Position numbers and translations under genes: made by a program. The notes beneath the pieces were generated by a model that had not been told where the DNA came from, did no database searches, and saw only the letters and a program-made list of their open reading frames with translations. This document shows positions 43,662-45,249 of a DNA stretch of 64,000 nt, in pieces. How positions within the stretch are numbered: position 1 is the stretch's first letter; every line of letters begins with the position of its first letter. The stretch comes from Shigella phage sb1: sequence record PQ666539, one strand, 5' to 3'.

Positions 43662-45249
<1,588 letters not shown>

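What the first reader, a model, noticed from the sequence alone, without database searches (positions are those of the whole stretch)
44391..44393. In-frame TGA in RNA ligase 1 gene (first)
...SEQALMAN(TGA)[14 protein letters not shown]...; T4 has Gly here as I recall.
Basis: partly seen in the sequence, partly recalled or inferred. Interest (0 to 1): 0.45.

Follow-up and report, generated by a model that had tools for sequence, protein, structure and literature searches.

The report
Sequence-error stop codon in RNA ligase
The in-frame TGA in this T4-like phage's RNA ligase 1 gene is real in the text, but it is one of about 300 random-looking G-to-T errors that put 33 stop codons into essential genes across the window, so it is a data-quality artefact and not biology.

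Summary
The TGA is at 44391-44393 (minus strand), in frame at codon 132 of a T4-type RNA ligase 1 gene (43662-44786). T4 and every relative checked have GGA (Gly) there. It is not special to this gene. Mapping phage pSs-1's genes onto the window gives 33 in-frame stops (TAA, TGA and TAG). They fall in terminase, tail sheath, scaffold, major capsid, baseplate, gp32, nrdA and tail-fibre genes, among others. Thirty-two of them arise from a single G>T or C>A change. About 1.2% of all G/C positions carry such a window-private change, equally on both strands and without sequence context. Their coding effects (78% missense, 12% nonsense, 10% synonymous) match the random expectation (79/12/9), whereas private transitions are about 80% synonymous. 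Inside Rnl1, all 7 G:C>T:A changes alter the protein and all 3 transitions are silent. All three stop codons still end genes at the conserved positions, and no suppressor tRNA or recoding signal is present. Public sibling records from one Kolkata study (sb4, sb2) show the same defect and share a few of the same stops. The window is probably the fourth genome of that study (ADG1, PQ666539). Verdict: uncorrected sequence errors, not a real feature.

The parts
43662..44786 (-). RNA ligase 1 gene (rnlA / gene 63), 374 codons plus stop. It is interrupted by 3 premature stops and carries 4 further missense G>T changes.
   Evidence: Translation. Match to T4 Rnl1 2C5U at E=4.5e-246 over residues 1-373. 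98.8% DNA identity to phage Sfk20. Reverting the window-private changes restores an intact 374-aa ORF.
44391..44393 (-). The reported in-frame TGA, codon 132. GGA (Gly) in T4 and all relatives; the change is G>T on the sense strand.
44238..44240 (-). Second in-frame stop, TAA at codon 183. GAA (Glu) in relatives; G>T.
43665..43667 (-). Third stop, TAA replacing the last sense codon Tyr374 (TAC). C>A on the sense strand.
44708..44708 (-). G>T missense, Ala27Ser (GCA>TCA).
44290..44290 (-). G>T missense, Arg166Ile (AGA>ATA).
44195..44195 (-). G>T missense, Asp198Tyr (GAT>TAT).
43973..43973 (-). G>T missense, Asp272Tyr (GAT>TAT).
1858..1860 (+). In-frame TAA in the small terminase gene (GAA in relatives).
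2975..2977 (+). In-frame TGA in the large terminase gene (GGA in relatives).
3461..3463 (+). In-frame TAA in the large terminase gene (GAA).
4125..4127 (+). In-frame TAA in the tail sheath gene (GAA). The same stop is present in public record sb2 (PQ666540).
10042..10044 (+). In-frame TAA in the scaffold gene gp22 (TCA; C>A).
10312..10314 (+). In-frame TAA in the scaffold gene gp22 (GAA).
11617..11619 (+). In-frame TAA in the major capsid protein gene gp23 (TTA; T>A). This is the only stop not made by a G:C>T:A change.
19075..19077 (+). In-frame TAA in uvsW.1 (GAA).
20141..20143 (-). In-frame TAA in uvsY (GAA).
21609..21611 (+). In-frame TAA in gp51 (GAA).
22634..22636 (+). In-frame TGA in gp27 (GGA).
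23075..23077 (+). In-frame TAA in gp27 (GAA).
23897..23899 (+). In-frame TGA in gp29 (GGA).
25684..25686 (+). In-frame TAA in gp48 (TAC; C>A).
27586..27588 (-). In-frame TAA in a small hypothetical gene (TCA; C>A).
29449..29451 (-). In-frame TAG in an alt-like ADP-ribosyltransferase gene (GAG).
35336..35338 (-). In-frame TAA in a hypothetical gene (TAC; C>A).
39687..39689 (-). In-frame TAA in a hypothetical gene (GAA).
43017..43019 (-). In-frame TAA in the Rz-like spanin gene (GAA). The same stop is present in public record sb4 (PQ666542).
43382..43384 (-). In-frame TAG in alc (GAG).
43196..43198 (-). In-frame TAG in alc (GAG).
48397..48402 (-). Two adjacent in-frame TAA codons in nrdA (GAA GAA in relatives). 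The one ending at 48399 is also present in sb4.
53210..53212 (-). In-frame TAA in gp32, the ssDNA-binding protein gene (GAA).
56717..56719 (+). In-frame TAA in gp34 (TCA; C>A).
56786..56788 (+). In-frame TAA in gp34 (GAA).
57647..57649 (+). In-frame TAA in gp34 (GAA).
59156..59158 (+). In-frame TAA in gp34 (GAA or GAG in relatives).
60109..60111 (+). In-frame TAA in gp35 (GAA).
61230..61232 (+). In-frame TAA in gp36 (TCA or TCG in relatives; C>A).

Best explanation
The TGA is an uncorrected sequence error, not a property of a living phage. The window is a T4-like (Tequatrovirus, pSs-1 group) genome segment whose deposited or assembled sequence carries roughly 285-350 spurious G:C>T:A transversions, about 1.2-1.5% of all G/C positions. 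At Rnl1 codon 132 one of them turned GGA (Gly) into TGA. The true gene almost certainly encodes an intact 374-aa RNA ligase 1.

Shown here: the change class, its density, its even spread over both strands, the lack of sequence context, its statistically random coding consequences, and the hits in essential genes.

Inferred: the step at which the errors arose. G>T/C>A is the signature of guanine oxidation (8-oxoG pairing with A during library PCR). For such changes to reach a consensus, very low effective coverage or library complexity would probably be needed.

Also inferred: the window is positions ~96001-160000 of Shigella phage ADG1/sb1 (PQ666539). That record comes from an Illumina NovaSeq/SKESA study whose sibling records sb4 and sb2 show the same defect.
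For: (1): 33 in-frame stops fall in genes colinear with pSs-1, and 32 are made by one G>T or C>A. They include terS, terL, gp18, gp22, gp23, gp27, gp29, gp48, gp32, gp34-36, nrdA, uvsY and alc. A plaque-forming T4-like phage cannot carry these.

(2): G:C>T:A makes up 33% of window-private substitutions (285 of 856), against 6-10% in five relatives. The strand split is 140 G>T to 145 C>A.

(3): in genes these changes are 78% missense, 12% nonsense and 10% synonymous, against 79/12/9% expected if every G/C site were hit at random. Window-private transitions are 79% synonymous, like those of the relatives.

(4): no base preference at any position from -8 to +8, and trinucleotide chi-square p=0.10.

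(5): in Rnl1 the 7 G:C>T:A changes are all non-synonymous (3 stops, 4 missense) and the 3 transitions are all silent. The expected number of nonsense hits in the gene at the window-wide rate is 0.7-0.9, so P(at least 1) is 0.5-0.6.

(6): TGA, TAA and TAG still end 20, 52 and 4 genes at the conserved ends.

(7): sibling record sb4 has 38 in-frame stops in the homologous 49 kb, with Rnl1 in three pieces broken at other codons. sb3 has 6 in that same 49 kb. Over the full window sb2 has 4, and pSs-1, Sfk20 and KNP5 have 0. The window shares exact stop positions with sb2 (4125) and sb4 (43019, 48399).

(8): the study (PMC11993411) reports ADG1 with the lowest G+C (35.16%) and 285 proteins, against 254-255 for the clean siblings. 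The window's G+C deficit relative to sb2/sb3/sb4 (-0.27, -0.28, -0.16) mirrors the published whole-genome differences (-0.33, -0.36, -0.19). PQ666539 is absent from the searchable collection.
Against: Classical oxidative-shearing artefacts occur at low allele fraction and prefer the CCG>CAG context (PMC3616734). Here the changes sit in the consensus, and that context is only 1.4-fold enriched and not significant. If the window is ADG1, fragmentation was enzymatic, not acoustic. So the chemical cause is not established.

No reads are available, so allele fraction, read orientation and coverage could not be checked. Identity with PQ666539 is circumstantial.

The sharing of a few identical stops between sibling records is not what independent random errors predict. 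It needs an extra assumption, such as cross-talk between libraries run together or recurrent sites.
Confidence: 0.88

Rival explanations
1. Genuine nonsense mutation: rnlA is dispensable on ordinary hosts (established T4 knowledge: it is needed only to repair tRNA cut by the PrrC anticodon nuclease). This phage lineage would then have truly inactivated it, making the gene a pseudogene.
For: The gene is non-essential, so a real knockout is tolerable. Another public record (ECp13, PP274704) has rnlA split by a 1-nt deletion. The gene has 3 stops against 0.7-0.9 expected, a mild excess (P about 0.04-0.06).
Against: The same mutation class at the same per-site rate breaks essential genes throughout the window. 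The gene shows no other sign of decay: there are no indels, the transitions are all silent, and it is 98.8% identical to intact homologues. None of 291 phage records is identical over the 61-mer centred on the stop.
Confidence: 0.04
2. Stop-codon recoding or suppression: TGA is read as Gly (as in genetic code 25) or as Trp, or is read through, so the gene is translated in full.
For: All four in-frame TGAs in the window align with Gly (GGA) codons of relatives. On its face this looks like a consistent reassignment. UGA followed by A is a comparatively leaky context in E. coli (own knowledge).
Against: The TGA=Gly match is the trivial result of G>T at the first base of GGA. The same change makes TAA from GAA and TAG from GAG, so all three stops would need reassigning. 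TGA ends 20 genes, TAA 52 and TAG 4 at the conserved positions. There is no tRNA in the window, and the ten tRNAs reported for the four genomes of that study, ADG1 included, are ordinary sense tRNAs. The mRNA downstream has no unusual structure (z=-1.6), there is no Rfam hit, and the flanking sequence is the same as in relatives that have GGA. The 171 accompanying missense changes are not explained.
Confidence: 0.01
3. Real G:C>T:A hypermutation in the DNA that was sequenced: oxidatively damaged or mutator-propagated phage (for example on a mutM/mutY-type host), or a dead or defective subpopulation. The changes would then exist in molecules rather than arising in library preparation or assembly.
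For: The spectrum is exactly that of unrepaired 8-oxoG. The changes are in the consensus rather than at low fraction. A few are shared with sibling isolates from the same lake and laboratory.
Against: About 0.5% of all bases changed, with 33 nonsense codons in 64 kb, cannot be the genome of the plaque-forming clone. There is no purifying selection at all on this class, while all other classes are normally selected. Relatives sequenced elsewhere lack it. A mixed population would not yield a consensus in which every such site is mutant.
Confidence: 0.05
4. Post-assembly corruption: the changes were introduced in silico, by data handling or deliberate noise, and were never in any reads.
For: Context-free, strand-symmetric changes of a single class at a near-uniform rate look like a simple random process.
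Against: Density is over-dispersed between 1-kb bins (chi-square 114 on 63 df, p=8e-5). Events closer than 50 bp tend to share strand orientation (42 of 66). Public sibling records show the same defect and share specific sites. The published G+C and protein count for ADG1 already reflect the defect.
Confidence: 0.02

Closest known systems
T4 RNA ligase 1 (gene 63 / rnlA; PDB 2C5U, 5TT6, 9DO4)
   Same: Same length (374 codons) and end-to-end alignment at E=4.5e-246. The adenylylation motif around Lys99 (LTKEDGS) is conserved. The genomic position is the same, between alc and denA/nrdB.
   Different: As written, the window copy has stops at codons 132, 183 and 374, plus A27S, R166I, D198Y and D272Y, all by G:C>T:A. 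A product ending at residue 131 would keep motif I but lack the rest of the nucleotidyltransferase domain (own knowledge of the fold).
Oxidative-damage C>A/G>T sequencing artefacts (Costello et al. 2013, PMC3616734; Chen et al. 2016, bioRxiv 10.1101/070334)
   Same: The excess class is G:C>T:A only. It is non-biological by the selection test and present irrespective of gene or strand.
   Different: The described artefacts are at low allele fraction, specific to read orientation and enriched at CCG>CAG. Here they are fixed in the consensus and context-free, and orientation cannot be tested without reads.
Sibling public records Shigella phage sb4/TMC4 (PQ666542) and sb2/AKR2 (PQ666540), from PMC11993411
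   Same: Same lineage (96% identity, colinear). The siblings share one Kolkata lake-water, NovaSeq and SKESA study, and the window is inferred to come from it too. They also have genes fragmented by substitutions: sb4 has 38 in-frame stops in the homologous 49 kb, with Rnl1 in three pieces, and sb2 has 4 over the full window. Three stop positions are identical to the window's.
   Different: sb4's unselected changes also include many A:T>T:A and A:T>C:G. Neither sibling has the TGA at Rnl1 codon 132.
TGA-to-Gly reassignment (genetic code 25) and stop-codon recoding in phages
   Same: All four in-frame TGAs align with Gly codons.
   Different: TAA and TAG also occur in frame, 29 times. TGA still terminates 20 genes. 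There is no suppressor tRNA. The host range (Shigella/E. coli) uses the standard code.

Membership tests
T4-type RNA ligase 1 (Rnl1) | Full-length sequence homology to T4 gp63 | tested here: met
   phmmer against PDB: 2C5U at E=4.5e-246, query 1-373 aligned to chain 2-374.
T4-type RNA ligase 1 (Rnl1) | Nucleotidyltransferase motif I lysine (Lys99 in KxDG) | tested here: met
   LTKEDGS is conserved at residues 97-103, upstream of the TGA. That Lys99 is the adenylylation site is own knowledge.
T4-type RNA ligase 1 (Rnl1) | Uninterrupted reading frame encoding the whole enzyme | tested here: not met
   There are stops at codons 132, 183 and 374. The frame is intact once the 10 window-private changes are reverted.
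Stop-codon reassignment / suppression | The reassigned codon is no longer used as a terminator | tested here: not met
   TGA ends 20, TAA 52 and TAG 4 of 76 genes at the positions conserved with relatives.
Stop-codon reassignment / suppression | Only one stop codon appears in frame, at conserved sense positions | tested here: not met
   In frame there are 4 TGA, 26 TAA and 3 TAG.
Stop-codon reassignment / suppression | A cognate suppressor tRNA is encoded | tested here: not met
   ARAGORN finds 0 tRNAs in the window. The 10 tRNAs reported for the four genomes of the Kolkata study, ADG1 included, are all sense tRNAs. The rest of this genome could not be scanned.
Programmed UGA readthrough / selenocysteine | A conserved RNA structure downstream of the UGA | tested here: not met
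   Fold of 44300-44400 (- strand) gives -20.2 kcal/mol, z=-1.6. No Rfam family matches in the window. Over the 61-mer centred on the codon, the closest relatives differ from the window at a single base, the GGA/TGA codon.
Oxidative (8-oxoG) library artefact | The excess is restricted to G>T / C>A | tested here: met
   33% of private changes against 6-10% in relatives. Other classes have normal proportions and normal synonymous fractions.
Oxidative (8-oxoG) library artefact | Changes are free of selection (non-biological) | tested here: met
   78/12/10% missense/nonsense/synonymous against a random expectation of 79/12/9%.
Oxidative (8-oxoG) library artefact | CCG>CAG context preference | tested here: inconclusive
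   The CGG context on the G strand is hit at 2.16% against a mean of 1.5%. The overall trinucleotide test gives p=0.10 and no flanking position is significant.
Oxidative (8-oxoG) library artefact | Read-orientation bias and low allele fraction | not testable with these tools
   No reads are available. Being in the consensus argues against a low fraction unless coverage or library complexity was very low.
Genuine pseudogene | Relaxed selection on all mutation classes, confined to the gene | tested here: not met
   Within Rnl1 the 3 transitions are all silent, and only G:C>T:A changes are damaging. The same damage occurs in essential genes.

The most novel reading that the evidence does not exclude
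The G:C>T:A changes are physically present in packaged phage DNA. That would mean a T4-like phage population carrying a massive oxidative (8-oxoG-type) mutational load, partly shared between co-isolated siblings. It would imply either extraordinary tolerance of nonsense codons or a large defective-particle fraction dominating the DNA preparation.
Probability: 0.03. Interest if true: 0.6.

Novelty: not a real feature. Interest (0 to 1): 0.06.

Why it matters
Biologically it does not matter: the phage almost certainly has a normal RNA ligase 1. The practical value is as a warning. This sequence, and the public siblings sb4 and to a lesser degree sb2, carry consensus-level G>T errors that fragment genes, inflate protein counts and lower G+C. 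They can also mimic stop-codon recoding, because every in-frame TGA aligns with Gly. Any scan for recoding, pseudogenes or novel small ORFs in this window will produce false positives from the same cause. Other first-stage findings in this window that rest on in-frame stops or odd amino-acid changes should be read in that light.

Tried and rejected
1. I looked for the source contig by exact protein look-up, using the Rnl1 N-terminal fragment and nrdB. Neither is on record.

2. I looked for the TGA allele anywhere. It has 0 hits in viral, genome and metagenome contigs and 0 identical 61-mers among 291 phage records.

3. I tried to fetch PQ666539 directly, but it is not in the collection. The paper's supplementary sequences are not held.

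4. I tested for strand-coordinated clusters, which would point to single damaged template molecules. The runs test is not significant (p=0.10). The only signal is a weak concordance for events closer than 50 bp (42 of 66). The run of six same-strand changes in Rnl1 is not exceptional.

5. I tested for a two-colour-chemistry signature, a preceding T on the G strand. There is none.

6. I considered errors from nanopore sequencing of modified bases (glucosyl-hydroxymethylcytosine). I rejected this because of the lack of context dependence, the near absence of window-private indels, and the Illumina platform reported for the likely source study.

7. I considered recoding, readthrough and selenocysteine, and rejected them as set out above.

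Full report
**The observation**

The + strand reads tca at 44391-44393, which is TGA on the minus strand. It lies in the frame that starts at ATG 44786 and ends at the conserved stop at 43662-43664. The conceptual translation is MQELF...[22 protein letters not shown]...IR*NETGEY...FIPEG**.

With the stops masked, the protein aligns end to end with T4 RNA ligase 1 (PDB 2C5U) at E=4.5e-246. T4 has Gly132, Glu183 and Tyr374 at the three stop positions. One correction applies: the second in-frame stop is TAA, not TGA.

**What the window is**

The Rnl1 region matches 498 T-even-type phage records at 90-99% identity. The best is Shigella phage Sfk20 at 98.8%. A 24-kb stretch is colinear with the pSs-1 group at about 96%. 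The whole 64 kb aligns colinearly with pSs-1 (one continuous match) and with sb2 (two adjoining matches).

Gene order is the classical T4 order, gp15 to gp37. On the minus strand, rnlA sits between alc and denA/nrdB.

**The local alignment**

I aligned the window against Sfk20, sb2 and ECp13. Most of the window-only differences in and around rnlA are G>T on the sense strand. They include all three stop-creating changes: GGA>TGA, GAA>TAA and TAC>TAA. This prompted a window-wide test.

**Window-wide test**

I projected the pSs-1 coding sequences onto the window and compared each stop with five relatives.

- There are 33 in-frame stops: 26 TAA, 4 TGA and 3 TAG.
- They fall in terS, terL (2), tail sheath, scaffold gp22 (2), major capsid gp23, uvsW.1, uvsY, gp51, gp27 (2), gp29, gp48, alt, alc (2), the Rz-like spanin, Rnl1 (3), nrdA (2), gp32, gp34 (4), gp35, gp36 and three small ORFs.
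- Thirty-two are explained by a single G>T or C>A relative to a sense codon in the relatives. The sense codon is present in all five relatives, except at 4125, where sb2 carries the same stop. One stop (gp23) is a T>A.
- No plaque-forming T4-like phage could carry these.
- By the same test pSs-1, Sfk20 and KNP5 have 0 such stops, YwIITB1 has 2 and sb2 has 4.

**Mutation spectrum and selection**

The comparison uses changes that are private to one genome, judged against five relatives.

| Measure | Window | Relatives or expectation |
|---|---|---|
| Private changes that are G:C>T:A | 285 of 856 (33%) | 6-10% in each relative |
| Strand split of those changes | 140 G>T, 145 C>A | - |
| Share of G/C positions hit | 1.23% | - |
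| Coding effect of G:C>T:A (missense / nonsense / synonymous) | 171 / 27 / 21 = 78 / 12 / 10% | 79 / 12 / 9% if every G/C site were hit at random |
| Codon positions 1 / 2 / 3 of G:C>T:A | 88 / 70 / 61 | - |
| Private transitions that are synonymous | 79%, concentrated at third positions | 73-89% in the relatives |

Only the G:C>T:A class has escaped selection, and it has escaped completely.

The changes show no base preference at any position from -8 to +8, and the trinucleotide test gives p=0.10. Density does vary between 1-kb bins more than Poisson predicts (p=8e-5). Events closer than 50 bp share strand orientation somewhat more often than chance (42 of 66).

**Rnl1 as a microcosm**

The gene has ten window-private changes.

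- Three are transitions, and all are silent.
- Seven are G:C>T:A, and all alter the protein: A27S, G132*, R166I, E183*, D198Y, D272Y and Y374*.
- At the window-wide rate one expects 4.7-5.8 such changes and 0.7-0.9 nonsense hits in this gene, so P(at least one stop) is 0.5-0.6 and P(three or more) is 0.04-0.06.
- Reverting the private changes restores an intact 374-residue protein.

Nothing singles out this gene or this codon.

**Recoding is excluded**

All four in-frame TGAs align with Gly codons, which could be mistaken for code-25-like reassignment. It is simply what G>T does to GGA, just as it turns GAA into TAA and GAG into TAG. The other evidence against recoding:

- TGA, TAA and TAG still terminate 20, 52 and 4 genes at their conserved ends.
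- The window has no tRNA gene and no Rfam match.
- The RNA downstream of the TGA folds unremarkably (z=-1.6).
- Over the 61-mer centred on the codon, the closest relatives that encode Gly differ from the window at a single base.

**Where the sequence probably comes from**

The closest relatives include three Kolkata lake-water phages: sb2, sb3 and sb4 (PQ666540-PQ666542).

- The sb4 record is visibly shattered, with 301 features. RNA ligase 1 is annotated in three pieces broken at other codons, and terS, uvsW, gp27, gp28, gp48, alt, DNA ligase and nrdA are split.
- In the homologous 49 kb, sb4 has 38 in-frame stops. Its private G:C>T:A changes are 72 missense, 17 nonsense and 3 synonymous.
- The window shares exact stop positions with sb4 (43019, 48399) and with sb2 (4125).
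- It also shares 19 G:C>T:A changes with sb2. Fourteen of these are coding, and 12 of those 14 are non-synonymous.

The paper describing these genomes (PMC11993411) lists a fourth phage, ADG1 (PQ666539).

| Phage | Accession | Length (bp) | G+C | Proteins |
|---|---|---|---|---|
| ADG1 | PQ666539 | 164,945 | 35.16% | 285 |
| AKR2 (sb2) | PQ666540 | 165,034 | 35.49% | 254 |
| CDR3 (sb3) | PQ666541 | 165,220 | 35.52% | 255 |
| TMC4 (sb4) | PQ666542 | 164,971 | 35.35% | 291 |

That accession is not in the searchable collection. The window's G+C is 35.84%, against 36.11, 36.12 and 36.00% for the aligned parts of sb2, sb3 and sb4. This reproduces the published ordering and sizes of the differences. 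The window start also maps to about position 96,000 of the siblings.

I infer, but could not prove, that the window is ADG1 positions ~96001-160000. The study used CTAB extraction, Twist enzymatic fragmentation, PCR, NovaSeq 6000 and SKESA.

**Mechanism**

It is shown that these are unselected changes of a single class in the sequence record. The cause is inferred.

G>T/C>A is the hallmark of 8-oxoguanine mispairing with A during library amplification (PMC3616734; bioRxiv 10.1101/070334). The described artefacts, however, occur at low allele fraction, depend on read orientation and favour CCG>CAG. Here they are in the consensus and are context-free. Very low effective coverage or library complexity, cross-talk between co-sequenced libraries, or another G/C-specific process would be needed to explain this.

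Errors from nanopore sequencing of modified bases are unlikely. Window-private indels are rare, there is no k-mer dependence, and the likely source was Illumina.

**Verdict**

The in-frame TGA exists in the text but is not a biological feature. It is one of many consensus-level G>T errors. Interest is low. The useful outcome is a caution that every in-frame stop and many odd residues in this window, and in the sibling public records, share this cause.

Noticed in passing
L017 (PQ666542.1, Shigella phage sb4) 1-49901: This public record is heavily fragmented. It has 38 substitution-derived in-frame stops in the 49 kb homologous to the window, and its unselected private changes are of several transversion classes (G:C>T:A, A:T>T:A, A:T>C:G). 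RNA ligase 1 is annotated as three CDSs.
   Followed up: partly
window 4125-4127, 43017-43019, 48397-48399: Three of the window's premature stops are at exactly the same positions as stops in the sibling records: sb2 for the tail sheath, and sb4 for the Rz-like spanin and nrdA. This is more than independent random errors predict (about 0.3 expected). It suggests cross-talk between libraries or recurrent sites.
   Followed up: partly
L004/L005 (PQ666540.1 sb2), L013/L014 (PQ356294.1 Ec_YwIITB1), L018 (PQ666541.1 sb3): These public relatives also carry in-frame stops or split essential genes. sb2 has a split sheath and a split gp34 (4 stops). YwIITB1 has split gp23, hoc and nrdB and a truncated frd (2 substitution stops). 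sb3 has 6 stops in the homologous 49 kb, with alt and nrdB split.
   Followed up: partly
L003 (PP274704.1 ECp13) 1115-2238: RNA ligase 1 of phage ECp13 is annotated as two CDSs because of a 1-nt deletion, corresponding to window position 44148. This is an independent example of a broken rnlA in a database record.
   Followed up: no
L001 (MW341595.1 Sfk20) 3331-4239: Sfk20's RNA ligase CDS is annotated as only 909 nt, although the alignment shows no stop or indel in the upstream 216 nt. This is probably a start-codon annotation choice. The gp34 region of Sfk20 (record 17446-22041) has no CDS annotated at all.
   Followed up: no
window 11617-11619: The stop in the major capsid protein gene is TTA>TAA (T>A). 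It is the only one of the 33 stops not made by a G:C>T:A change, so a minor second error class may exist. Window-private A>T changes (58) also outnumber T>A (33).
   Followed up: no
window 22053-22058: The gp51 stop TAA is CAA here and in sb3, which extends gp51 by one codon to the TGA overlapping the gp27 start (CAATGA). It looks like a natural variant, not an error.
   Followed up: yes
window 15061, 36205, 37161: There are single-base indels relative to most relatives. A 1-nt deletion sits in the DUF2774 gene, a 1-nt insertion sits at the start of a small hypothetical gene (35840-36206), and one further 1-nt insertion sits at 37161, outside the mapped genes. Two of the three frameshift small ORFs. 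It is not resolved whether these are errors or natural variation.
   Followed up: no
window 24000-28000: This region (gp29/gp48/gp54) differs from sb2 and pSs-1 about four times more than its surroundings do. A cluster of derived G:C>T:A states shared with Ec_YwIITB1 (positions 24151-26729) falls in this region. This indicates a natural mosaic or recombinant segment.
   Followed up: no
window 49329-50189 and 45277-46455: td and nrdB are uninterrupted (861 and 1179 nt). No group I intron, or any other Rfam family, is detected in the window. By my recollection T4 itself has introns in these genes.
   Followed up: partly
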